Of a DNA stretch of 64,000 nucleotides, positions 2,401 to 61,393 are shown one piece after another; within the stretch, counting starts at the first letter, position 1, and each line of letters starts with the position of its first letter. Below the pieces are notes generated by a model that was not told the DNA's origin, ran no database searches, and saw only the letters and a list, made by a program, of their open reading frames with translations. A program made the translations under genes and the position numbers. The DNA lies in assembly GCA_964503755.1 (NCBI GenBank), contig CAZDBO010000001.1, positions 200,926 through 264,925 on the forward strand. The letters run 5' to 3'. This DNA is from an uncultured Candidatus Saccharibacteria bacterium (GTDB taxonomy: Bacteria > Patescibacteriota > Dojkabacteria > JAOAGR01).

Positions 2401-3638
2401 CTGAATATTTTTTTAATTTCTTTTAATGCATTAATAAATATATCTATTTCTTCTATAGTATTGTAGAAACATAAAGACACTCTTGCAACAGAATTGACTT
2501 TTAGCTCATGCATTATTATTTGTGTACAATTATGACCTGTTCGTATTGCAATGCCATGATTATCTAGTATTGTTCCAACATCATGAGAATGTACGCCATT
2601 AATATTAAATGAAAATATTGCTAAACGATTTTTATTTCTTTTGGGACCATATATTGTCAAATTATCAAGATTTAACAATCTTTCTAGCATATATTCACTT
2701 AATTTTTCTTCGTAAGATTTGATATTATGTAATCCTACAGATTGGATAAATTTTATAGACGCATCGAATGCTATTACATCAGCAATATTTGGAGTACCAG
2801 CTTCGAATTTGTTTGGAATATCAGCATATGTTGTATTTTCCCTTGTTACGGTTTTAATCATATCGCCACCGCCAAGAAAAGGGGACATTTTTTCTAATAC
2901 GGATTTTTTTCCAATAATTATGCCTACCCCCATTGGGCCTAAACATTTGTGAGCGGAGAATGTGAAAAAGTCCGGATTAATCTGTGATAGATTAATTTCA
3001 AAATGTCCACATGCTTGTGCACCGTCTATTACGATTAATGTTTTGGGGTTTTTATTTCGGATTTTTTTGATGATAGATTCAACATCATTAATTGACCCAA
3101 ATGTATTTGATACAAAACAGAATGAAACTATTACTGTTTTATCATCTATTTTAGATATCAAATCATCTATATCTATATATCCCTCTTCATCAAATCTGCA
3201 AAATCTAATTCCAAATTTTTTAGATTTTTGTACAAGTTGCCATGGTACTACGTTGGAGTGATGTTCTAAGTCGGTTAGTATGATATTGTGATCATCTGTT
3301 AGTTTTTCAGATATTCCATAGGCTATTAAATTTAGACTTTCGGTGTCGTTTTTGGTAAATACAACTTCATACTCATCTGATGCACTCCAAAAATTTTTTA
3401 TAGTGTTTCGGACATTTTCATACTTTTCAGTTGCTTCTTGGGATAAAGTATGCACACCTCTATGAATATTTGCATTATATTTTTCATAATATTCAACTAG
3501 AGTATCTATCATTACTTTGGGCTTTTGAGTAGTTGCGGCATTATCAAAATATATTAATCTCTTTCCATTTACTTTACGTTTTAATATTGGAAACTGTTTA
3601 CGAATATTTACTACATCAAACATGTTATGATTATACAA
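2397..3638 (-). CDS. sufS: cysteine desulfurase (SufS/Csd, class V aminotransferase)
   Basis: 413 aa with ...FDNAATTQKP..., the PLP-lysine context ...FSAHKCLGPMGVGII... and RTGHNCTQ near the C-terminus. Confidence 0.82.
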   Translation of the reverse strand: MYNHNMFDVVNIRKQFPILKRKVNGKRLIYFDNAATTQKPKVMIDTLVEYYEKYNANIHRGVHTLSQEATEKYENVRNTIKNFWSASDEYEVVFTKNDTESLNLIAYGISEKLTDDHNIILTDLEHHSNVVPWQLVQKSKKFGIRFCRFDEEGYIDIDDLISKIDDKTVIVSFCFVSNTFGSINDVESIIKKIRNKNPKTLIVIDGAQACGHFEINLSQINPDFFTFSAHKCLGPMGVGIIIGKKSVLEKMSPFLGGGDMIKTVTRENTTYADIPNKFEAGTPNIADVIAFDASIKFIQSVGLHNIKSYEEKLSEYMLERLLNLDNLTIYGPKRNKNRLAIFSFNINGVHSHDVGTILDNHGIAIRTGHNCTQIIMHELKVNSVARVSLCFYNTIEEIDIFINALKEIKKIFR

Positions 3639-3643
3639 CGATT

Positions 3644-4423
3644 ATGCGAGGAAATATAAAGGCATTGTTAATTTTTCTAAAGAAACAAAATATTGACTTT
3701 GTACAGCATGATGAAAATTTTATTGAAGTAAATTATAAAAATCAAAAACTATTTTTTATAAATTGTCGTGTCCCTTTTAATGATCATGCAAAATCAACCT
3801 TGTTTACCGATAAATATTTTACATATACATTACTCAAGGATAATCTAAAAATGCCGAAAACTTATTTTTACTTAGATCCTTTTGTTGAAAAGAAGTTTGA
3901 TAGATATAGAAAATTTTTAACTTATGATGAAATTTCTTCTGATGTCAAATCTAAATTTTCACTACCCTTTGTAATAAAACCAAATAGATTATCAAGGAAA
4001 AAAAATTTTTTTCTTATAGATGATCCGAAAAAGTTAGAGTTTGCTATTAAGCAAATTTTTAACCATAAAAGTGAAAATTATGATTATGGATTGATCTGTC
4101 AGGAATATATAAATATCAAAGATGAATATCGAGTTATTGTAGTTGCTAACGAAATCAAACTTATCTATAAAAAATGGAAATTTATTAAGATAACAGATAT
4201 TAATATGATATTTGATATTCAAAAGTTTGCTGAAAACATTGTAAAAACAGTGCAATTAGACTTTGTTGGTATCGATTTAGCATATGATATAAATGGAAAT
4301 CTTTTTTTAATCGAAATAAATAGTGCGCCTGATTTCACCCCATACATTAAACATAATTGTATTGACGATATTGTAGATATATACTCTTTTGCCTTTGAAA
4401 AATTCGTCTTCTATTTTACCTGA
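3644..4423 (+). CDS. ATP-grasp family ligase (RimK/alpha-L-glutamate ligase-like)
   Basis: Contains ...YRVIVVANEIKLIYKK...VGIDLAYDINGNLFLIEINSAPDF..., an ATP-grasp C-terminal signature. The start is set at ATG 3644 to avoid the 5' antisense overlap with sufS. Confidence 0.55.
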   Translation: MRGNIKALLIFLKKQNIDFVQHDENFIEVNYKNQKLFFINCRVPFNDHAKSTLFTDKYFTYTLLKDNLKMPKTYFYLDPFVEKKFDRYRKFLTYDEISSDVKSKFSLPFVIKPNRLSRKKNFFLIDDPKKLEFAIKQIFNHKSENYDYGLICQEYINIKDEYRVIVVANEIKLIYKKWKFIKITDINMIFDIQKFAENIVKTVQLDFVGIDLAYDINGNLFLIEINSAPDFTPYIKHNCIDDIVDIYSFAFEKFVFYFT

Positions 4424-5687: not shown

Positions 5688-6968
5688 TTACATTTTTATT
5701 ATCATTCCTCTTTGTTTTGTAGGGGTAGTATAAAATTCTATTTCCGAATTTTCAAATTTTTTGGCTAAATCTATCTCTAAATCTAAAACTTGCATTTTAT
5801 TTGTATTACGTGAGTTGATATATAAAGCATTATTGATTATTAATCTAAAAATACGCCCGTTTTTATTTTTCATTCCGGAAAGACAAAAACAGTAAACAAA
5901 ATTCGGGTTACTAAAATTAATAATGGATTGATTTTTTATACCTTCAAAGGTTAAATTATTAAAATGTATAAATTCGACAGTAGGAGTGTTAATGCCAAAT
6001 TTAAGATAATTTTTGTTATCACCAAAAGGAATATTTAGTTTGCCAAACTTTATGATATATTGCTTTTCTGCAACTGTACCATATGATGTAAATCTGTAAG
6101 ATCCGGGTTGTTGTTTTAGTTGTGGATCATAAGCAATACTTGTCCTGCCAAACAGTTTTTTCTTTTCTAAAAAATCTTGCACTTTGTAAATCGATTTTTC
6201 TAACAGAATCCTTTCGGATGAGAAATTTGATAAGAAAAACTCTGTTAGTATCTCCTCTGTTGCTTGAAGTCCAAATACTATATATCGATCCTGCAAATTT
6301 AGTGTTTTCACCTCTTTAGATTTTTTATACAAATCATAATAGTTTCCAATAAATGATAAAAGTTCACTAATTTCCTTTAGAGATGGTAGATAAGATATTG
6401 TATAACTCCAATTTATTATTTGGGGTATAACTATTTTTAAATCAAATTTTGTATATATAAATTCTTCAGTTATGCCACGAGAACTATATAAATATTTAGT
6501 TCCATCTACAACTTCTAAATTATAATCTATACCTACATTTAGTATTTTGGCTGTTTCTTCTATGAGTTTTATTATTTTGAATAAATATTCTGGTTCATAA
6601 ATTGAGTTTGATAATTGTCTATCATTACATATAACAAGAGGATAAAGATTTTTCGATGGTATAAATATCTTTTCGTTATTTTCTAGTGTCAATCTGTTTT
6701 CGTAGGCTGTTTCTATCCATTCATCAATTTTATTTAAATATGTATGATCTACTTCTCCTTCGGAATATTCATGTTCAGGCCATACAATCGTATAAAACCC
6801 CCTTGAATTTTCTTCTATTTCTATTGGATTGTTTAAATGGTGATTTTTATCAATTTTATTATCGAATTGGACTTTATAATATTCGTCATTATAAAGCACA
6901 TAATCAACAATCTGCTTTTTAGAAAGTAGATTCTGTAATTTCTGCGCAAGTTTTTCTGTTAAGTTCAT
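5688..6968 (-). CDS. hypothetical protein (third gene of the PEP-utilising-like operon)
   Basis: 426-aa ORF with a 4-nt ATGA overlap to the upstream gene. No recognisable motif. Confidence 0.5.
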   Translation of the reverse strand: MNLTEKLAQKLQNLLSKKQIVDYVLYNDEYYKVQFDNKIDKNHHLNNPIEIEENSRGFYTIVWPEHEYSEGEVDHTYLNKIDEWIETAYENRLTLENNEKIFIPSKNLYPLVICNDRQLSNSIYEPEYLFKIIKLIEETAKILNVGIDYNLEVVDGTKYLYSSRGITEEFIYTKFDLKIVIPQIINWSYTISYLPSLKEISELLSFIGNYYDLYKKSKEVKTLNLQDRYIVFGLQATEEILTEFFLSNFSSERILLEKSIYKVQDFLEKKKLFGRTSIAYDPQLKQQPGSYRFTSYGTVAEKQYIIKFGKLNIPFGDNKNYLKFGINTPTVEFIHFNNLTFEGIKNQSIINFSNPNFVYCFCLSGMKNKNGRIFRLIINNALYINSRNTNKMQVLDLEIDLAKKFENSEIEFYTTPTKQRGMIIKM

Positions 6969-8026
6969 ATAAGCTTAGCTTTATTCTTTGATACAACAAA
7001 TAATGTAAATTTGTTATCTACAAACATTGATTTTGGAGCTGATTTTAGTATCACGAAATCACGATTTATTGTTTCGATTTGTTCGCCATCAAAAAAAAAT
7101 ACTTCATCTAACATCAGAGTATTGTTTTTTTCTAAATCCCTTGACTCAGATGATATACAAAAAAGTACAGGTGTCTTAATTGAAATTTTATTACATATTT
7201 GATTTAGGTAATCTTTATTGTAAAGGAAATAGGGGCTTTTGAGTTGCTTTAAATTTATAAGTACTTGATCACTTATATTGTCTATATCATAGAATTTTTG
7301 TGAGTCACTAAATATAAGTACTATATAATTATTTACATTTTTTAATGTTGATTTTTTCTTGTTTTTTTGTTTTTTGGGGATATCAATATAAGATAAATGA
7401 GTCTCCAAAGTATATGTCTTATTTTTGATTAAATCAGTATCAATATAGATATTTTTTTTACTAATTAAATTTGAATCTTGATAGATAAAAATTTCTAAAT
7501 ATACGTATGAATTATTGCTTGCCGATACTTGTTTTGAAGATTTTGTAAAATATTGACATAGATTATTCTCGACTACTAATTTATATTCGATGTTGATATT
7601 AGAGTATTTATCTTTAGTGTGATCTATACTTTCAATTAATATCTCTTTTAAATATTCAAAGTCAGATTTATTTATACTTTGATTATTTTGAGACTGTTCT
7701 TCTATATTTATGTAAATATTATTTATATAAACTTGTGATGATTTTTTATAAAATTGATAAATATTTTCACTATATGAATAGAGTCTTTGGGACAAATCTG
7801 CAAGATGTGTTTTGTCTGATTTACCGTTTAGAACAAGGTCTTTATAAACTTTGGTGAGACATATTCGTTCTTTTGTTTTGTGATAAGATCTTATTATGCG
7901 TTTATTTATAGTGTGTAAAGTAAAATTTTCTATTGATTCTACCTTAATGTAAATTTGCTTCTTTTGATTTGATTTAGAACAGGTTTTAATTATGTGAGGC
8001 TTGTGATTGTCATATTGATATATCAT
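6965..8026 (-). CDS. hypothetical Asn/Lys-rich protein (second gene of the operon)
   Basis: 353-aa ORF, same strand, tightly linked to both flanking genes. Confidence 0.5.
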   Translation of the reverse strand: MIYQYDNHKPHIIKTCSKSNQKKQIYIKVESIENFTLHTINKRIIRSYHKTKERICLTKVYKDLVLNGKSDKTHLADLSQRLYSYSENIYQFYKKSSQVYINNIYINIEEQSQNNQSINKSDFEYLKEILIESIDHTKDKYSNINIEYKLVVENNLCQYFTKSSKQVSASNNSYVYLEIFIYQDSNLISKKNIYIDTDLIKNKTYTLETHLSYIDIPKKQKNKKKSTLKNVNNYIVLIFSDSQKFYDIDNISDQVLINLKQLKSPYFLYNKDYLNQICNKISIKTPVLFCISSESRDLEKNNTLMLDEVFFFDGEQIETINRDFVILKSAPKSMFVDNKFTLFVVSKNKAKLI

Positions 8027-8124: not shown

Positions 8125-11019
8125 TTATAATCTTTTGCTTAATTCTCTCTGTTCTAGTTCGCGTAGAATTGTCTTAACAGTATCGCAATTATCCATGCGA
8201 CAGGCTATATGAGTGAAATTATTATTGAAAATATACTCAGCAACTTCACTCGGTTTTTCAAATCCACTTATATCAATTATAGAATTATCTTTTAAACTAT
8301 CTCGCTGTGATAAATATTTAACAAGATTTCTCATACCTTCTACAAATTTAGTTGACGCAGTAAGTTTTTCTACACCAAGCATGTTCATCTTCAACCTGAA
8401 TAGATCATAATAGCGTCCGTCAACAAGAATATTGTCCATAATTTCTTCTAAACGAAAAACGTTGATCATGCGCGATACATTGGCATAGATAAAAAATGTA
8501 GAAGATCTTTTTAATCCAACTTTATTTAATAATTGTTTGGTCTGAACTATATCCTTTTTATTACGATAATCCGGTAAAATAAGCGAAAGATTCTTAAATT
8601 TAGACCTAATATTGTTGTGTATTTGCACTAAAAAGTTAAGCATAACTTGACTTTCGTATGGGGGGCATATAACTAGTACTTTTTTTTCTAAACCTATTAT
8701 TTGTAAATTCTGTAAAAGTAAATTTATGCCTACAGGCATATCTTGGGTAAAAGAAAAAATCGCGCCATCATAATTAGCTAGAGAACGATCGACAACTTCG
8801 TCTATCAGATGAACATATACTTTTGATATTGTAGGCACAAAGTCCAGATATTTTTTATGTCTTTTAGGAGTATTAATTTCATGTATATATGATTCTTCTA
8901 TGTCAAAATTAAATTCTTTACTTTCATTTGATATCTTATTAAGCTCGTAATTTATAGAATCAATGGATGTTGTTGCCTGTTGTGGATTTACTTCACTACT
9001 GGTTCTAACGAGCTTTTGCAAACTATTGGCCCATAGTTTTGTTTGATCAGATTCACTGATTCCTTGTACTACATCTAAATTATTATTTTCTACTACTGTT
9101 TTTTTTTCATCTTCTGTTACATAATTTAATATACTTTCTAGTATACTTTGTTTATCTTCTTTATTTGTTTCTGCTATATAAATAGAGCTCTCAGAAATAT
9201 CTGATTTAACATCCGCCTGAATTATATATTCTTTTTTTGGTTCGACTGGTATAGATAAAGATTCGCCTTCTATACCTTCATGTGTTTGTCGTTCTAATTG
9301 TATTGTAAGGTCAATTTGCGTATTAGGTTCTGTTATTTCAAATGTTTCTTGTGATAAAGAATTTTCATTTGTAACTTTATTTATGTTATCAGTCTTAAGT
9401 CCTTCCGTACTGTTCGATATACTTGATATTTCAATATTATTTGTTGCATTCGGGTCAGAAACGTATATTCCTCCTGTTTGAGGATCAATTCTTATTGGTT
9501 CACCTTCTTTTAATAGTCTATTTGCCAAAGGTGCACCAGTAATAATTGGTATTTTAAAATGTTCATAAAGCCTTATTGCCAATATCTCTGATGGTTCTAC
9601 TATTATAAATCCTCTAACTTTAAGATCAGCTCTAATATCCTCGAAACCTTCAAGGATAAGAATACTATCTTCGCTTGGAGATTCATAATTAAAAGTAGCC
9701 TTTCCCACAACTACTGAATCTCCCCTATAATATCGTCCTTCAATCAAAGGACGTTGTTTAAATATTACATTGTTGTCCATATGATCATAGATTACATTTT
9801 TTTGAAATTCTTTTCTAGTGTTGTTTTCAACAGTAATATTTTCTGCTTTATTTATATAGTTTGATGATAAATTTTCATTTAAATTTGTCGCCACGTCTTG
9901 ATCATCTGTAATGGGCTTAAATATTTGTTGGGGTAATTCAGTTTGTTCAAAATGAATAATAAAACTATTTTGATTTACTTGATCTAAAAATTGATTATGT
10001 TTTGCGCTTAGGGTAATATCTTCTATTTGCTGTGTATCTGATAATTTATCGTCTTCTTGATAATTAATCTCGATTTGTTCTGAGTTTTTATTGTCTCTAA
10101 CTTCGATTTGTTCTGCAGTTTTTTCAGGTATTGCGTTATTAATTTCTATTTCTGTTTCATCTATTTCTGTATCAAATATGATATCCTCAGTACTTTTTTT
10201 AGGTACATAATCTATTTGATTAATGTAATAAATCCATATTTTGCCATTATCTAGCATCCAGTGTATTTCATAATCTCTATGAAGTTCTTCTGAGATGATT
10301 TTTATAGTTTTGGTTAGTGATTTAATATGTTTGTCGTCTATTTTTTGTTTCTTTTGCCAAGCAACAGAAACTTCTATCTGCTTGTATGGTAATGCATCAT
10401 GTCCTCGAATATACATGAATTTTTGTTCTGCAATATGTTTCTCGAGTATTTTTTCTGTATTTTTATTTACGATATAAGTGTCATATTCAATATTTAGATT
10501 GTTAACTGGTATTCCATAAGCAGCCTCGATAAGTATTGTTTCATCAGAATTGTTTAATACATTCTTGGAAAAAGCATATCCAAAAGAATCACAGTTATTT
10601 GATTTTAGTATCAGTATGTTAACTATACTATTTGAATATTGTTTCAAAACATTTGTCTGCATCTCATTAATAACATCTTCTATTGAAAAGATTATCTTTT
10701 GTATACCTTTTACTTGATATGCACATAAATCTTTTATAATCTGATTATTATCATTAGATTTAATAAAAACGAAGATATTGACATATGATTCGGTTAATCC
10801 AGATATTGATTCATATTGGTCAATTATTTCTTTGGAAATTGAGTCTCTAATATGTGAATCAGTAGAATTGCTTGCTAATTTTGTTACTCCACTATGACTT
10901 ATTATAAATCCATTTGGTATAGGTAGTAATTCTTTATATAGATCTGATAATAAAACTGTTAAATCAGTAAAATCTTGGCCTGCTTTGATTTTTTCTTGTA
11001 GACTATATACGTGCTTCAT
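8125..11019 (-). CDS. large PEP-utilising enzyme (PEP synthase/PPDK)-like multidomain protein, probably non-canonical
   Basis: 964 aa. The N-terminus resembles the PPDK/PEPS nucleotide-binding domain (PIPNGFIISHSG...). The central segment resembles the PEP-utilisers mobile domain (...RGFIIVEPSEILAIRLYEHFKIPIITGAPLANRLLKEGEPIRIDPQTGGIYV) but has no His at the phospho-carrier position. The C-terminal roughly 240 aa are TIM-barrel-like. Long E/N/Q/I-rich low-complexity linkers separate the domains. Confidence 0.5.
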   Translation of the reverse strand: MKHVYSLQEKIKAGQDFTDLTVLLSDLYKELLPIPNGFIISHSGVTKLASNSTDSHIRDSISKEIIDQYESISGLTESYVNIFVFIKSNDNNQIIKDLCAYQVKGIQKIIFSIEDVINEMQTNVLKQYSNSIVNILILKSNNCDSFGYAFSKNVLNNSDETILIEAAYGIPVNNLNIEYDTYIVNKNTEKILEKHIAEQKFMYIRGHDALPYKQIEVSVAWQKKQKIDDKHIKSLTKTIKIISEELHRDYEIHWMLDNGKIWIYYINQIDYVPKKSTEDIIFDTEIDETEIEINNAIPEKTAEQIEVRDNKNSEQIEINYQEDDKLSDTQQIEDITLSAKHNQFLDQVNQNSFIIHFEQTELPQQIFKPITDDQDVATNLNENLSSNYINKAENITVENNTRKEFQKNVIYDHMDNNVIFKQRPLIEGRYYRGDSVVVGKATFNYESPSEDSILILEGFEDIRADLKVRGFIIVEPSEILAIRLYEHFKIPIITGAPLANRLLKEGEPIRIDPQTGGIYVSDPNATNNIEISSISNSTEGLKTDNINKVTNENSLSQETFEITEPNTQIDLTIQLERQTHEGIEGESLSIPVEPKKEYIIQADVKSDISESSIYIAETNKEDKQSILESILNYVTEDEKKTVVENNNLDVVQGISESDQTKLWANSLQKLVRTSSEVNPQQATTSIDSINYELNKISNESKEFNFDIEESYIHEINTPKRHKKYLDFVPTISKVYVHLIDEVVDRSLANYDGAIFSFTQDMPVGINLLLQNLQIIGLEKKVLVICPPYESQVMLNFLVQIHNNIRSKFKNLSLILPDYRNKKDIVQTKQLLNKVGLKRSSTFFIYANVSRMINVFRLEEIMDNILVDGRYYDLFRLKMNMLGVEKLTASTKFVEGMRNLVKYLSQRDSLKDNSIIDISGFEKPSEVAEYIFNNNFTHIACRMDNCDTVKTILRELEQRELSKRL

Positions 11020-11078
11020 TATTTATTCATATAGCATATTTGAGATATAGTCACAATGTTAGCAGACAGTAAGAGTGA

Positions 11079-13559
11079 TTGCTAAAAATGATTGGCTGTA
11101 CTACAATATTGATAGCTATGGAAAATTATTTTAGTAACAGTGCCAAACAAGTTTTACAAGAAGCCGCACAATTAGCGGTTGAACGTGGTACAACTTATAT
11201 AGACACGGAGCATCTTTTGTATGCTGCTATACAAACGGAAATAAATAGAAAGATATTAGAAGAGATCAATAAAAATCCAGAGACCATTATTGAATATCTG
11301 GATAACAACATGCCTACATTTTCTAGGAGATTTTATGGAACTATTGCCGCTGATTTGACGCCACGTGCAAAACAAACATTAAATTTAGCTTTTGAATTTG
11401 CAAGGGAATTTGGGCATGGATATGTAGGTGTGGAACACGTTCTTTTAGGGATTTTAGAAGAAGGTGAAGGATTTGGGGCACAAGTTTTAAGAAGGTTTGG
11501 AGTAACAGTTGAAGATTTAAAAAAAGCCATAAAAAAAGTACTTGGTGAGGGTAGCAAACAGACTACAAAATCTGATACTCCTACTTTAGATAAATACTGT
11601 CGTGATGTTACAAAGCTTGCAAGAGAAGGAAAGATTGATCCAGTTATTGGGCGTAAAAATGAGATCGAAAGAGTAACTCAGATTCTTTCACGACGAAGAA
11701 AAAATAATCCTGTTTTGATTGGAGAACCAGGGGTTGGAAAAACTGCAATCGTAGAAGGATTGGCATTGAAAATCGTTCAGGGAAACGTTCCAGATGTATT
11801 GCAGGATAAGCGCGTTCTTGCTTTGGATATGGGAATGCTTATCGCTGGCACAAAATATCAAGGTGAGTTTGAAGAAAGGGTTACTAAAATTATCAAAGAG
11901 TTGCAATCATCTGGCGGAAATATAATTCTTTTCTTGGATGAATTGCACACTATTGTTGGGGCTGGAGCTGCTGAAGGCAAAACTGATTTGTCCAATTTGC
12001 TAAAACCCGCATTAGCAAGAGGAGAGTTACAAGCTATTGGTGCGACTACGCTTATAGAATACAAGAAATATATAGAAAAGGATCCAGCTCTTGAGAGGAG
12101 ATTTCAGCCAGTACTTGTTTTAGAGCCATCAATAGAAGATGCTATACAGATATTGAAAGGATTAAGAGATAAATATGAAGCACATCATAAAATACAGATT
12201 TCTGATGAAGCAATAGAAGCAGCTGTCAATCTGAGTGTTAAGTATATTAGTGACAGATTTTTGCCTGACAAAGCACTAGATGTGCTCGATGAATCTGCAT
12301 CAATGTTGAGGTTAAAAGCTATAAATGAACCAGAACCTATCAGAAACATAAAGCAGAAAATAACTGATTTGGAAAGAGAAAGAGAAGCTCTAACTCGTTC
12401 AAGAGAATACGAAAAAGCAGCATTAATAAAGCAAGAGGTAGAAAAGCTTAAAACAGAGCTACAACCATTAGAAGAAGAGTGGCTAAAAACTAGAGGTACT
12501 GGTACTCCGGTTTTAGGTGTAAATGAAATAGCCGAGGTTATTTCGAATATGACAGGTATTCCTGCAAATAAAATAAACAAGCAGGAAAAAGAAATACTGG
12601 CTAATCTTGAACAACTCTTACATAAAAGGGTTGTAGGACAAGAAAGAGCAGTAAATGCAGTTGCAAACGCGGTACGCAGATCGAGACTAGGTCTAAGTGA
12701 TGAAAAAAGGCCCATAGCTTCATTCTTATTTGTTGGACCAACAGGAGTGGGAAAAACTGAATTGGCAAAAGCCTTGGCTGAGAATTTATTTGGACATGAG
12801 TCAAATTTAATACGTATAGACATGAGTGAGTACATGGAGAAACATTCTGTTGCTCGTCTAATAGGAGCACCTCCAGGATATGTTGGGTATGAAGAAGGCG
12901 GACAGCTAACAGAAAGAGTTCGACGTAAGCCATATTCAGTTATATTATTAGACGAGATAGAAAAAGCTCATCCTGATGTCGCTAACATATTTTTACAAAT
13001 ATTAGAAGATGGACGTTTGACAGATGGACATGGTCGTACAGTTAATTTTAGAAATACAATAATTATTGCTACCTCAAATGTAGCATCTAACCAAATTTTT
13101 GAATATTACGAGAAGCAAAGAGATAATATAGCAGAAAAACCAGAAAGTAGTATTTTAAAATTCAAAGAGGATGAAGGAAAGAAGGATATAGAAACTGTAG
13201 TAATCAATGCGCTCAAAAGTGTTTTCAGGATAGAGTTAATCAACAGATTTGATGGTATCATTGTTTTCGAACCACTTAGCCGAGATATAATTCAGCAAAT
13301 AGTCAGATTGCATCTGACTATATTGGTAGAAAAATTAGAAAGAAATGAAATTAAATTATCTTATTCAGATGAAGTAGTCGAATACATAGCAAATAAAAGT
13401 TATAATCCTCGCTTTGGAGCTCGAGAGGTACGTAGATTTGTACAAAAACATGTTGAATATCTTATTTCAAATTATTTGATAAGTAGAGATTCAAATATTA
13501 GTCAGAACATTAGGCTTGTTTTAGAGGATGAAAAAATAAATATAGTTGAAGATTGTTAA
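11079..13559 (+). CDS. clpC: ATP-dependent Clp ATPase, ClpC/ClpB family (two AAA+ modules)
   Basis: Clp N-domain repeats, Walker [16 protein letters not shown] and [15 protein letters not shown], and a short coiled-coil middle domain typical of ClpC. The start is either 11079 or ATG 11118 (MENYFSN...). Confidence 0.85.
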
Positions 13560-60124: not shown

Positions 60125-61393
60125 CTAGCTTATGTATTTTTGATTTATTATTTCTTCGATTCTTATTAATTCATTGTATTTAGCTACTCTATCTGTGCGT
60201 GAGGGAGCGCCACTTTTGATCTGTCCGCAGTCTGTACCGACGGCTAGATGAACTAATGTCACATCTTCTGTTTCTCCAGATCTGTGACTTACGACGTTTT
60301 TCCAACCAGCATCTTTTGCCATTTTTATTGCATCAAGTGTTTCACTTAAAGTGCCGATTTGATTCATCTTGACTAATAGCGTATTACATAATTCCTTGTC
60401 TATTGCCATTTTGATTCTTTCTGTATTGGTTACCAATAAATCATCCCCTACAATTTGTAAATTATTTCCATATTTTTCGTTAAAAATGCGCCATGATTCG
60501 ATATCATCTTCAGAAAACCAATCTTCGACACTTATTATTGGATATTTTTCATAAAGATAATTGAACCATTCGATCATTTCATCTGGAGTTTTGTTTTCAC
60601 CATCTCTTTTTAGTACGTAAAGACCCTTATCCGCATCGTAAAATTCGCTTGCGGCTGCATCTAATCCTATTGCAAAATCAATTTCTGGTTTATATCCTGC
60701 CTTTTCCATTGCATCTATAATTGTTTTTATGGCATCTTCATTTGAATCTAATATCGGTGCATAGCCACCTTCATTTCCGACATTTGTACTATGTCCATGA
60801 CTTTTTAGGATTTTGCCTAAGTGGTGATATACTTCAGCACATTTTCTGAGGTTTTCTTTCCAACTATTGTTATTTATCGGGATTATCATGTACTCTTGTA
60901 TGTCAGTTGCCCAGTCAGCATGTTTACCACCATTCATGATGTTCATCATGGGACGGGGTAGAGAAAATTTACTATTTCCTGATATTTGACCTATGTATTC
61001 GAATAATTCTAATGATCTGCTTTTTGCGCTAGCCCATGCATAAGCTAGGCTAACAGCAAGTATTGCGTTTGCTCCAAGATTAGATTTATTTTTGGTACCA
61101 TCCAAATCTATTAATCTTTGATCAAATAATTCTTGTTTGCTTGATTCAAAGCCGAAAAAATATGTATTAAAAATTGAATTGATAGTATTGACTGCATTCA
61201 AAACTCCTTTACCTAGAAATCTGTGTGGATCGTTATCGCGTTTTTCTATCGCTTCATATGATCCTGTAGATGCGCCGGATGGTACAGATGCTCTGCCTTT
61301 TGATCCATCGTCTAGTATGACCTCTGCTTCTACGGTAGGATTGCCTCTAGAATCTAATATCTCTCGACCGTGGATTTTAATTATTTTTACCAT
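60125..61393 (-). CDS. eno: enolase
   Basis: 422 aa, ...ILDSRGNPTVEAEVILDDGSKGRASVPSGASTG... Confidence 0.92.
   Translation of the reverse strand: MVKIIKIHGREILDSRGNPTVEAEVILDDGSKGRASVPSGASTGSYEAIEKRDNDPHRFLGKGVLNAVNTINSIFNTYFFGFESSKQELFDQRLIDLDGTKNKSNLGANAILAVSLAYAWASAKSRSLELFEYIGQISGNSKFSLPRPMMNIMNGGKHADWATDIQEYMIIPINNNSWKENLRKCAEVYHHLGKILKSHGHSTNVGNEGGYAPILDSNEDAIKTIIDAMEKAGYKPEIDFAIGLDAAASEFYDADKGLYVLKRDGENKTPDEMIEWFNYLYEKYPIISVEDWFSEDDIESWRIFNEKYGNNLQIVGDDLLVTNTERIKMAIDKELCNTLLVKMNQIGTLSETLDAIKMAKDAGWKNVVSHRSGETEDVTLVHLAVGTDCGQIKSGAPSRTDRVAKYNELIRIEEIINQKYIS

What the first reader, a model, noticed from the sequence alone, without database searches (positions are those of the whole stretch)
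9460..9753. Catalytic phospho-histidine position apparently substituted in the mobile-domain-like segment
The segment ...RGFIIVEPSEILAIRLYEHFKIPIITGAPLANRLLKEGEPIRIDPQTGGIYV aligns in spacing to the PEP-utilisers motif ...GGRTSHAAIVARELGIPAVVG...DG..V.VDG..G.V. Where the canonical T-S-H would fall it has P-S-E, so there is no histidine and possibly a phosphomimetic Glu. This would make the protein a pseudo-enzyme or a regulator locked in a 'phosphorylated-like' conformation. The flanking low-complexity linkers (about 9762..10206 and 8860..9459) suggest flexible tethering.
Basis: inference. Interest (0 to 1): 0.5.

Follow-up and report, generated by a model that had tools for sequence, protein, structure and literature searches.

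The report
Dead PEP-synthase relative lacking its phospho-histidine
The segment is a real "swivel" phosphate-carrier domain inside a three-domain relative of PEP synthase from a tiny CPR (Dojkabacteria-like) bacterium, but it has no carrier histidine, the other two active sites are also dismantled, and the protein is still strongly conserved, so it is a pseudo-enzyme kept for an unknown non-catalytic job.

Summary
Window 9460-9753 (minus strand) lies in a 964-aa ORF (8125-11019). An AlphaFold model and Foldseek show three PEPS/PPDK-type domains: ATP-grasp, swivel domain, TIM barrel. They are joined by two ~140-residue disordered acidic linkers. The swivel fold is solid (pLDDT 90.7, TM 0.66-0.71 to PK/RPH/PPDK swivel domains; hhalign E=4e-12). 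No histidine occupies the catalytic position. Depending on the method it aligns with P476, E478, L480 or I482, and E478, at the N-terminus of the helix, is the best candidate. The only nearby His (H487) is not conserved.

First, the ATP-grasp Mg/phosphate ligands and the PEP/pyruvate site are also gone, so the whole protein is catalytically dead for PEPS chemistry, yet domain dN/dS is 0.08-0.13. Second, the loss is ancestral. The sister family, widespread in Candidatus Dojkabacteria, has T-S-D (115/120) or T-S-E (5/120) with an apparently intact ATP-grasp. In the window's subfamily the residue is acidic in 12 of 14 representatives.

The gene always lies divergent to clpC, across a conserved CIRCE-like operator. 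Function is unknown. I favour a non-catalytic scaffold or regulator. This is a new variant of a known kind, of moderate interest.

The parts
8125..11019 (-). Whole gene: 964-aa PEP-synthase-derived pseudo-enzyme (P0001)
   Evidence: ORF. Pfam PPDK_N E=2e-14. Collinear Foldseek matches to PEPS 2ols and PPDK 1kbl. hhalign to the Dojkabacteria PEPS-like family gives 100 %, E=1e-51 over 771 columns.
10207..11019 (-). aa 1-271: ATP-grasp-like domain with fold kept and catalytic residues lost
   Evidence: AF2 pLDDT about 88. Foldseek RPH ATP-grasp 5hv6 TMt 0.70. Equivalents of PpsA K27/R127/E320/Q334/R336 are D/F/H/Y/N in the window protein. The E320 position is never Glu in 13 subfamily representatives. 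dN/dS 0.079.
9784..10206 (-). aa 272-412: disordered acidic low-complexity linker 1
   Evidence: pLDDT<50. E 13 %, I 13 %, N 12 %, 22 % acidic. 42 % aa identity and dN/dS 0.27 against L008. Length varies between homologues.
9442..9783 (-). aa 413-526: swivel (PEP-utiliser mobile) domain without a phospho-histidine
   Evidence: Domain-only AF2 pLDDT 90.7. Foldseek TMq 0.66-0.71 to PK/RPH/PPDK swivel domains. hhalign E=4e-12 and 1e-6. dN/dS 0.135.
9586..9594 (-). P476-S477-E478: the place of the canonical T-S-H, with E478 the most probable equivalent of the carrier His
   Evidence: Translation. The domain hhalign aligns P-S-E to T-S-[DE] of the sister family. In the AF2 models the strand is 470-473, the loop 474-477, and the helix starts at 478. 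Alternative registers give L480, I482 or P476.
9040..9441 (-). aa 527-660: disordered acidic low-complexity linker 2
   Evidence: pLDDT<50. E 15 %, I 13 %, S 12 %. dN/dS 0.27 for aa 526-725.
8848..9039 (-). aa 661-724: helical lead-in to the barrel (low to medium confidence)
   Evidence: Helices 656-674, 679-699 and 701-716, with pLDDT about 46-64.
8128..8847 (-). aa 725-964: PEP/pyruvate-type TIM barrel with the PEP site dismantled and new invariant motifs (ILPDYRNKK, DLFRLKMNMLGV)
   Evidence: Foldseek PEPS C-terminal domains 9dae_A/8a8e_A TMt about 0.6, and HpcH aldolases. No Pfam hit. PpsA R578/R608/E680/N703/D704/C751 are S/V/S/F/R/G here. dN/dS 0.076.
11059..11085 (.). CIRCE-like inverted repeat TTAGCA-N15-TGCTAA in the divergent clpC / PEPS-like intergenic region
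   Evidence: Three mismatches to the CIRCE consensus, with 0.01 expected by chance. An equivalent TTAGCA-N15-TGC(T/C)AA lies in the same intergenic region of L002, L008, L009, L010 and L011.
11079..13559 (+). Divergent neighbour: ClpC-type Clp_N + double AAA+ ATPase (true start probably ATG 11088 or 11118)
   Evidence: Pfam hits. The divergent pairing with the PEPS-like gene is conserved in all six subfamily loci.

Best explanation
The segment is a genuine swivel (PEP-utiliser mobile) domain in a three-domain protein descended from pyruvate,water dikinase (PEP synthase). The organism is a ~30 % GC CPR/Patescibacteria bacterium related to Candidatus Dojkabacteria.

The carrier histidine is gone, and E478, at the N-terminus of the domain's helix, most probably sits in its place. 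The ATP-grasp Mg2+/phosphate ligands and the PEP/pyruvate/Mg2+ residues of the TIM barrel are gone too. The protein therefore cannot run the ATP -> His~P -> pyruvate relay and is a pseudo-enzyme.

The loss came in steps:
1. The common ancestor with the widespread Dojkabacteria family had already swapped His for Asp/Glu and remodelled the barrel, with D704->Arg/Lys as a shared derived change.
2. The window's subfamily then also lost the nucleotide site and acquired two ~140-residue disordered acidic tethers.

All three folded modules remain under strong purifying selection, so the protein does something.

Inferred, not shown: it acts non-catalytically, as a binding or scaffolding protein whose three modules hang on flexible tethers. 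It is probably expressed together with the divergently transcribed clpC from a shared CIRCE-like (HrcA-type) operator, which would place it in the heat-shock/proteostasis regulon.
For: **Fold and homology**
-.

**No His**
- Four alignment registers give P476, E478, L480 or I482.
- H487 is not conserved.

**Dead ATP-grasp and PEP site**
-. The mapping to E. coli PpsA uses L007.
- Residue roles come from the PPDK literature as I know it: K22, R92, E323, Q335, R337, His455, R561, R617, E745, N768, D769, C831.

**Selection**
- dN/dS against the 77 %-identical orthologue L008 is 0.079 (ATP-grasp), 0.135 (swivel) and 0.076 (barrel), against 0.27 in the linkers.
- The subfamily has 14 clusters at 50 % identity.

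**Ancestral acidic residue**
- The sister family has T-S-D in 115/120 and T-S-E in 5/120, with K27, R127, E320 and Q334 kept in 120/120.
- The subfamily has S-[DE] in 12 of 14 representatives.
- An NJ tree places the subfamily sister to that family and apart from canonical PEPS.

**Context**
- The clpC pairing holds in all six subfamily loci.
- The TTAGCA-N15-TGCYAA element is conserved in the intergenic region.
- hrcA is adjacent in L002.
Against: - No experiment exists. 'Dead' is inferred from residue identities under alignments that are uncertain in the first half of the barrel.
- The barrel keeps invariant polar motifs (PDYRNKK, DLFRLK, TASTK) at the C-terminal ends of strands, where TIM-barrel active sites lie. 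A new ligand-binding or catalytic site is therefore not excluded.
- P0004-type members keep a 'VGKS' Lys and the R127-equivalent Arg, so residual nucleotide binding in part of the subfamily is possible.
- The clpC adjacency sits inside a larger syntenic block (GatB-ClpC | PEPS-like-...-PmbA-Trx), so it may reflect shared ancestry rather than function.
- The promoter scan is not above chance in this AT-rich DNA.
Confidence: 0.6

Rival explanations
1. The TIM barrel has been re-tooled into a new ligand-binding or catalytic site. The dead ATP-grasp and swivel modules serve only as regulatory or structural appendages, so the protein is an enzyme or sensor of a different kind rather than a pure scaffold.
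For: The barrel is the most constrained part (dN/dS 0.076). It carries subfamily-invariant polar motifs (ILPDYRNKK, D[LM][FY]R[LI]K[ML]NMLG, TASTK) following predicted beta-strands 811-817 and 868-872. It also matches HpcH/HpaI aldolases and PEPS C-domains structurally. N810, K828, R838, D867 and E956 are invariant across both families.
Against: Every residue known to bind PEP/pyruvate/Mg2+ in this superfamily is replaced. There is no Pfam or NCBIfam hit for the barrel. No metabolic gene is consistently adjacent.
Confidence: 0.22
2. Glu478 is a working carboxylate phosphocarrier. It would be phosphorylated to an acyl phosphate by the N-terminal domain and pass the phosphate on, giving an Asp/Glu version of the swivel relay.
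For: The position is acidic in 12 of 14 subfamily representatives and in 120 of 120 sister-family proteins. ATP-grasp enzymes in general activate carboxylates as acyl phosphates (established knowledge). The sister family keeps K27, R127, E320 and Q334.
Against: In this subfamily the Mg2+ and phosphate ligands of the ATP-grasp (E320, Q334, R336) are never retained. The position is Ala in P0004 and Arg in P0135. The acceptor site in the barrel is gone. The G-G-x-T loop that frames the His is deleted.
Confidence: 0.05
3. The gene is a decaying relic, in effect a pseudogene, and the motif loss is simply erosion.
For: It sits on a long branch and is more degenerate than other subfamily members. It comes from a fast-evolving, reduced genome.
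Against: The 964-codon ORF is intact. Orthologues are intact in at least 14 clusters at 50 % identity. Domain dN/dS is 0.08-0.13. All three domains give confident AF2 folds.
Confidence: 0.03
4. The resemblance to the mobile domain is coincidental and the segment is an unrelated small beta/alpha domain.
For: Pfam PF00391 reaches only E=0.026, below its gathering score, and covers only the C-terminal half.
Against: hhalign gives E=4e-12 and 1e-6. Foldseek top hits are exclusively swivel domains with TM about 0.7. The segment is in the correct position between an ATP-grasp and a PEPS-type barrel.
Confidence: 0.02

Closest known systems
Phosphoenolpyruvate synthase / pyruvate,water dikinase (PpsA; TIGR01418, NF005057) and pyruvate,phosphate dikinase
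   Same: Same three-domain order: ATP-grasp PF01326, swivel domain PF00391, PEP/pyruvate TIM barrel PF02896. Folds are collinear with 2ols and 1kbl. Conserved framework motifs are shared (ISGxTD, AWQKKQK, GLxR, DG).
   Different: No carrier His. The ATP-grasp ligands (E323, Q335, R337 equivalents) and the PEP-site residues (R561, R617, E745, N768, D769, C831 equivalents) are all replaced. The short helical linkers are replaced by ~140-residue disordered tethers. NCBIfam scores of 42-45 bits are far below the cut-offs of 883-1300.
Unnamed Candidatus Dojkabacteria (WS6) PEPS-like family (P0006-P0125; databases call it 'PEP-utilizing enzyme', 'PEP/pyruvate-binding domain-containing protein' or 'pyruvate,water dikinase')
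   Same: It is the sister group (hhalign 100 %, E=1e-51; NJ tree). There is an acidic residue after the conserved Ser in place of His. The PEP site is lost, with a shared D704->Arg/Lys change. MutS lies nearby in both contexts.
   Different: That family keeps the G-G-x-T-S loop and the ATP-grasp residues (K27, R127, E320, Q334 in 120/120), and has short linkers (~830-865 aa). It sits 20-26 nt downstream of an AI-2E-type permease gene rather than opposite clpC. The window's subfamily has lost the nucleotide site as well.
Rifampin phosphotransferase (RPH) and prodigiosin ligase PigC/RedH
   Same: The ATP-grasp and swivel folds are the best structural or NCBIfam matches for the N-terminal and central domains (5hv6 TMt 0.70; 5hv2 TMq 0.70; PigC E=4e-12).
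   Different: In RPH the His swivel domain is at the C-terminus, after a rifampin-binding domain, and RPH uses a catalytic His. The window protein has PEPS domain order, a PEPS-type barrel and no His.
C-terminal PEPut domain of Geobacillus/Staphylococcus pyruvate kinase (2e28, 3t05)
   Same: Best Foldseek match of the isolated domain (TMq 0.67-0.71). It is an example of a swivel domain used outside a phosphotransfer relay.
   Different: There the domain is an appendage to an active kinase and generally keeps the T-S-H motif (my recollection, not tested here).

Membership tests
PEP synthase (pyruvate,water dikinase, EC 2.7.9.2) | Three-domain architecture: ATP-grasp, then swivel, then PEP/pyruvate TIM barrel | tested here: met
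   The AF2 model has three confident domains. Foldseek gives collinear matches to 2ols and 1kbl, and domain matches to 5hv6, 9dae_A and 8a8e_A.
PEP synthase (pyruvate,water dikinase, EC 2.7.9.2) | Phosphocarrier His in the G-G-x-T-[SC]-H motif (E. coli His421) | tested here: not met
   The position is P476, E478, L480 or I482 depending on the alignment, and never His. The G-G-x-T loop is deleted.
PEP synthase (pyruvate,water dikinase, EC 2.7.9.2) | ATP-grasp nucleotide/Mg2+ ligands (PpsA K27, R127, E320, Q334, R336) | tested here: not met
   D, F, H, Y and N in the window protein. The E320, Q334 and R336 equivalents are lost in every subfamily representative.
PEP synthase (pyruvate,water dikinase, EC 2.7.9.2) | PEP/pyruvate/Mg2+ residues of the barrel (PpsA R578, R608, E680, N703, D704, C751) | tested here: not met
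   S, V, S, F, R and G. The alignment of the first two positions is less certain.
PEP synthase (pyruvate,water dikinase, EC 2.7.9.2) | Score above the curated NCBIfam/TIGRFAM cut-off | tested here: not met
   Best PEPS model NF004881 scores 42.1 bits against a cut-off of 883.
PEP-utilising enzyme mobile (swivel) domain, PF00391 | Swivelling beta/beta/alpha fold homologous to PF00391 | tested here: met
   Foldseek TMq 0.66-0.71 with only swivel domains on top. hhalign 97.6 %, E=4e-12, to a domain that passes PF00391 at 62 bits. The direct Pfam score of 14.6 bits is below the gathering score of 23.1.
Dojkabacteria T-S-[DE] PEPS-like family (unnamed) | Acidic residue after the conserved Ser at the His position | tested here: met
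   E478 in the window protein. Acidic in 12 of 14 subfamily representatives, Ala or Arg in two.
Dojkabacteria T-S-[DE] PEPS-like family (unnamed) | Retained ATP-grasp catalytic residues (K27, R127, E320, Q334; R336->K) | tested here: not met
   120/120 in that family, none in the window subfamily. The window protein is therefore a sister subfamily, not a member.
Rifampin phosphotransferase | Domain order ATP-grasp, rifampin-binding domain, C-terminal His swivel domain | tested here: not met
   The swivel domain is central and is followed by a PEPS-type TIM barrel. There is no His.
Any catalytic activity / nucleotide binding | Measured ATP binding, autophosphorylation or PEP formation | not testable with these tools
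   Requires purified protein.

The most novel reading that the evidence does not exclude
The His-to-Asp/Glu swap marks a previously unrecognised branch of the PEP-utilising superfamily in CPR bacteria, in which the swivel domain carries a carboxylate.

In the sister family the ATP-grasp is intact, and the swivel Asp would be phosphorylated to an acyl phosphate. That is the ancestral ATP-grasp chemistry, applied in cis to a mobile domain. The window's subfamily would be its 'frozen' descendant. There the acidic residue acts as a constitutive phospho-mimic that fixes swivel-domain docking and turns the protein into a tethered adaptor working with ClpC in the heat-shock regulon.
Probability: 0.1. 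Interest if true: 0.8.

Novelty: new variant of a known kind. Interest (0 to 1): 0.5.

Why it matters
1. **Annotation.** Members of this subfamily and of its sister family are named 'phosphoenolpyruvate synthase', 'pyruvate,water dikinase' or 'PEP-utilizing enzyme' by IMG and NCBI. None of the 120 sister-family proteins or 14 subfamily representatives examined has the carrier His or the PEP site. Metabolic reconstructions of Dojkabacteria-like CPR genomes that count them as gluconeogenic PEPS are therefore probably wrong. One CPR-wide study already noted that PEP synthase HMM hits needed manual curation (PMC7304191).
2. **Enzyme evolution.** This is a stepwise example of pseudo-enzyme formation: His->Asp/Glu plus barrel remodelling first, loss of the nucleotide site second, and acquisition of long disordered tethers last. 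Purifying selection persists in a genome under strong reduction, so a non-catalytic role is worth finding.
3. **Sister family.** The T-S-D family with an intact ATP-grasp is a testable candidate for a carboxylate-based swivel phosphocarrier.

Tried and rejected
- **Direct Pfam and NCBIfam scans of the whole protein.** Only the ATP-grasp was significant, and the barrel gave nothing.
- **PDB sequence search.** It found only the ATP-grasp part. The swivel-region alignment to 9dae_A had a negative score.
- **PADLOC defence models.** No hit for the protein, its sister or the downstream ORF.
- **MAFFT alignments.** They disagree on the register at the His position: I482; L480 with canonical sequences; P476 in the full-length hhalign. 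I therefore did not rely on any single alignment, and used the domain-only profile alignment together with the AF2 helix start.
H413 and H487 are the only two, and neither is conserved.
- **Literature.** Four searches (Dojkabacteria + PEPS; PEP-utilizing + catalytic histidine + pseudoenzyme; phosphohistidine domain/swivelling; WS6 genomes) found no description of His-less PEPS-like proteins. The CPR antibiotic-resistance paper mentions rph-like hits but nothing specific.
- **Sigma-70 promoter scan.** It was not above the shuffled expectation in this AT-rich DNA (19 found against 23.9 expected). The promoter assignments are by eye only.
Full report
**1. What is at the coordinates**

Window 9460-9753 read on the minus strand gives RPLIEGRYYRGDSVVVGKATFNYESPSEDSILILEGFEDIRADLKVRGFIIVEPSEILAIRLYEHFKIPIITGAPLANRLLKEGEPIRIDPQTGGIYV. 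The plus strand is full of stops. The stretch is residues 423-520 of a 964-aa ORF at 8125..11019 (-). P476-S477-E478 is window 9586-9594.

The window is ~30 % GC and carries ordinary housekeeping genes: ClpC, GatB, YidC, PNPase, FtsH, ThrRS, enolase and CysRS. The 77 %-identical orthologue is in a MAG titled Candidatus Dojkabacteria bacterium. More distant ones are in MAGs labelled Saccharibacteria or Patescibacteria. The source is therefore a CPR/Patescibacteria genome.

**2. Is it a mobile domain?**

Pfam alone is not convincing:
- The whole protein hits only PPDK_N (aa 145-263, E=2e-14).
- The isolated segment hits PF00391 at E=0.026, below the gathering score and over its C-terminal half only.

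Three independent lines settle the question.

(a) A bridging family. P0006, an 830-aa protein from a large family of Candidatus Dojkabacteria/WS6 proteins, hits PPDK_N at 7e-61, PF00391 at 3.6e-17 and PF02896 at 0.015. It is collinear with the PEPS model NF005057 over its full length. The window's subfamily aligns to this family with hhalign probability 100 %, E=1e-51, over 771 columns. Domain-only hhalign gives 97.6 %, E=4e-12, to the Dojkabacteria mobile domain, and 91 %, E=1e-6, to canonical PpsA sequences.

(b) Full-length AF2. It gives three confident domains (aa 1-270, 413-526, 725-964) separated by segments with pLDDT<50 (272-412 and 527-660). Foldseek against the PDB finds:
- RPH ATP-grasp, 5hv6, TMt 0.70;
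- collinear matches to PEPS 2ols and PPDK 1kbl;
- the PEPS C-terminal domain structures 9dae_A and 8a8e_A, TMt about 0.6;
- HpcH-type aldolases.

(c) Domain-only AF2 model of aa 413-527 (pLDDT 90.7, pTM 0.84). Its best PDB matches are only swivel domains: pyruvate kinase C-terminal PEPut domain (2e28; 3t05 with TMq 0.71, rmsd 2.3), RPH (5hv2, TMq 0.70), PPDK and the Enzyme I N-domain.

**3. The histidine position**

E. coli PpsA (L007) has GGRTCH421AAIIARELGIPAVVG. The window protein has GFIIVE-PSE-ILAIRLYEHFKIPIITG. From the strand to the I-P motif it is one residue shorter overall. The best reading is a 3-residue deletion in the G-G-x-T loop and a 2-residue insertion in the helix.

The methods disagree on the register:

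| Method | Residue aligned to His421 |
|---|---|
| MAFFT | I482 |
| hhalign vs canonical sequences | L480 |
| Full-length hhalign (puts P476 opposite the acidic residue) | P476 |
| Domain hhalign vs the sister family (P-S-E to T-S-[DE]) | E478 |

In both AF2 models the strand is 470-473, the loop is V474-E475-P476-S477, and the helix begins at E478. In PPDK and Enzyme I the His sits at the N-terminus of the equivalent helix (my knowledge of those structures), so E478 is the most probable structural equivalent. This step is inference, because I could not superpose coordinates.

Under every register there is no His. The only His residues in the domain are H413 at its edge and H487, which is Tyr or Phe in other subfamily members.

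**4.

I mapped the residues that define catalysis in PEPS/PPDK onto the alignment. In PPDK numbering these are K22, R92, E323, Q335, R337, H455, R561, R617, E745, N768, D769 and C831. The E. coli PpsA equivalents are K27, R127, E320, Q334, R336, H421, R578, R608, E680, N703, D704 and C751 (residue roles from established literature; mapping).

| Group | ATP-grasp positions | His421 | PEP/pyruvate positions |
|---|---|---|---|
| Window protein | D, F, H, Y, N | (see section 3) | S, V, S, F, R, G |
| Sister Dojkabacteria family, 120 sequences | K27, R127, E320, Q334 kept 120/120; R336->K 120/120 | D 115, E 5 | R578 and R608 lost; N703->P; D704->R/K; C751->I/M/V |

Across the subfamily representatives found by the exhaustive search, the E320 position is never Glu, Q334 is Y/F/W/S, and R336 is N/E/A/D/.... 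The P0004-type members retain a VGKS Lys and the R127 Arg.

An NJ tree on 657 well-aligned columns places the window subfamily as sister to that family, with both apart from canonical PEPS. The outgroup includes a canonical CPR PEPS, L012, with GGATCH, GSNDLTQ and CGQ. The shared D704->Arg/Lys change and the acidic residue after the conserved Ser are shared derived characters.

**5. Is the Glu conserved?**

In 14 subfamily representatives that cover the region, the residue after the invariant Ser is Glu in 7, Asp in 5, Ala in 1 (P0004) and Arg in 1 (P0135). It is therefore usually acidic but dispensable. That fits inheritance from a T-S-[DE] ancestor better than an indispensable phosphomimic.

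**6. Not a decaying gene**

| Region (vs the 77 %-identical orthologue L008) | dN/dS |
|---|---|
| ATP-grasp-like domain | 0.079 |
| Swivel domain | 0.135 |
| Barrel | 0.076 |
| Linker 1 (42 % aa identity) | 0.27 |
| Linker 2 | 0.27 |

The exhaustive HMMER search over 1.84 billion representatives finds 14 subfamily clusters at 50 % identity (P0001 plus P0126-P0138; bits 318-999, then a gap to 235). The barrel keeps invariant motifs: ILPDYRNKK, D[LM][FY]R[LI]K[ML]NMLG and TASTK.

**7. A wider radiation**

Among the other 133 top representatives, the His column is D in 38, E in 11 and H in 15, and other residues or gaps in the rest.
- About 35 show the pattern 'K-R-E-Q-K + [TASNG]-S-D' with the PEP site lost.
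- About 10 are canonical (K-R-E-Q-R, T-[SC]-H, R-R-E-N-D-C).
- Many others are further degenerate lineages.

The library carries no taxonomy, so I cannot say how far this extends beyond CPR.

**8. Context**

In every subfamily locus (window, L002/L003, L008, L009, L010, L011) the gene is divergent to a ClpC-type Clp_N + double-AAA+ ATPase. The intergenic region carries TTAGCA-N15-TGC(T/C)AA. In the window this is at 11059-11085, has three mismatches to the CIRCE consensus with 0.01 expected by chance, and is the only exact TTAGCA-N15-TGCTAA in the 64 kb. L002 has hrcA directly after the gene.

The pairing sits within a larger syntenic block (GatB-ClpC | PEPS-like ... PmbA/TldD-Trx), so a functional link is suggestive only. 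The sister family has a different context: it lies 20-26 nt downstream of an AI-2E-type permease gene, with sortase, tig and clpP a few kb upstream and mutS downstream.

**9. Mechanism**

Shown:
- The fold and architecture are those of PEPS.
- There is no carrier His.
- The nucleotide/Mg and PEP/pyruvate residues are replaced.
- The tethers are long, disordered and acidic.
- Purifying selection is strong.
- clpC is a conserved neighbour, with a conserved operator-like repeat between the genes.

Inferred:
- The protein cannot catalyse phosphotransfer.
- It works non-catalytically, as three folded binding modules on flexible tethers, perhaps as a scaffold or adaptor co-regulated with ClpC.

The main rival is a re-tooled barrel with a new ligand or activity. 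An acyl-phosphate role for E478 is unlikely here because the nucleotide site is gone, but it remains an attractive hypothesis for the sister T-S-D family.

**10. Comparison and novelty**

The protein fails the catalytic-residue and curated-score criteria of PEPS while keeping its architecture. It is sister to, but not a member of, the T-S-[DE] Dojkabacteria family, having lost the ATP-grasp residues. Four literature searches found no description of His-less PEPS-like proteins in CPR bacteria. Databases name them PEPS.

Verdict: a real feature and a new variant of a known kind. Interest is moderate (0.5).

Noticed in passing
window 11059-11085; also L008 5935-5961, L002 9856-9882, L010 823-849, L011 5806-5832, L009 306-332: A CIRCE-like inverted repeat TTAGCA-N15-TGC(T/C)AA is conserved in the divergent intergenic region between clpC and the PEPS-like gene in all subfamily loci. 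hrcA lies next to the gene in L002. By eye, a clpC promoter candidate TTGCTA-17-TACAAT (11079-11107) overlaps the right arm. A candidate minus-strand promoter TTGTGA-17-TATATG, conserved in L008, abuts the left arm.
   Followed up: partly
L013 5596-8007 (+); also P0217: A PEPS from a MAG labelled Saccharibacteria has intact ATP-grasp residues and an intact PEP site (RLSDF, GYRGA, GSNDLTQ, CGQ). Its swivel motif reads EGSTGSPAVLAAREMGAPAIVG, so His is replaced by Pro. P0217 has the similar GSSGSPAIQAAREMG. This is a different kind of His-less variant.
   Followed up: no
L004 6793-7974, L005 6811-7980, L006 6807-7979: In the sister Dojkabacteria T-S-D/E family the gene starts 20-26 nt after an AI-2E_transport (PF01594) permease gene on the same strand, probably as an operon. 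Sortase, trigger factor and clpP lie a few kb upstream, and mutS lies downstream.
   Followed up: partly
P0186 (1191 aa): A canonical PEPS representative appears to carry a ~400-residue intein-like insertion exactly inside the catalytic G-G-A-T | ... | N-C-H motif of the swivel domain.
   Followed up: no
window 6965-8026 (-): A 353-aa ORF immediately downstream of the PEPS-like gene overlaps the PmbA/TldD-like gene (5688-6968) by 4 nt. It has no Pfam, NCBIfam or PADLOC hit and is recognisable only in the closest relative (L008, 72 %). It is possibly a very divergent TldD/PmbA partner.
   Followed up: partly
P0139-P0271: Many further PEPS-like lineages among the top relatives have lost both the ATP-grasp residues and any recognisable T-S-H loop (for example VLKSVLKEEELQLIKVPVLHS and ILESMPDPELLKQLTVPVIYG). 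Degeneration of PEPS homologues seems to have happened repeatedly.
   Followed up: partly
window 9734-9753 (+): A terminator-like hairpin (CGTCCTT-CAATCA-AAGGACG followed by a T-rich tail) lies on the strand antisense to the gene, inside the finding's coordinates. With 2 found against 0.4 expected in the 3.4-kb scan, it is probably chance.
   Followed up: no
window 60125-61393 (-) and 3533-4423 (+): The window encodes an ordinary enolase, so PEP can be made glycolytically. It also encodes a separate small RimK-like ATP-grasp protein four genes from the PEPS-like gene.
   Followed up: no
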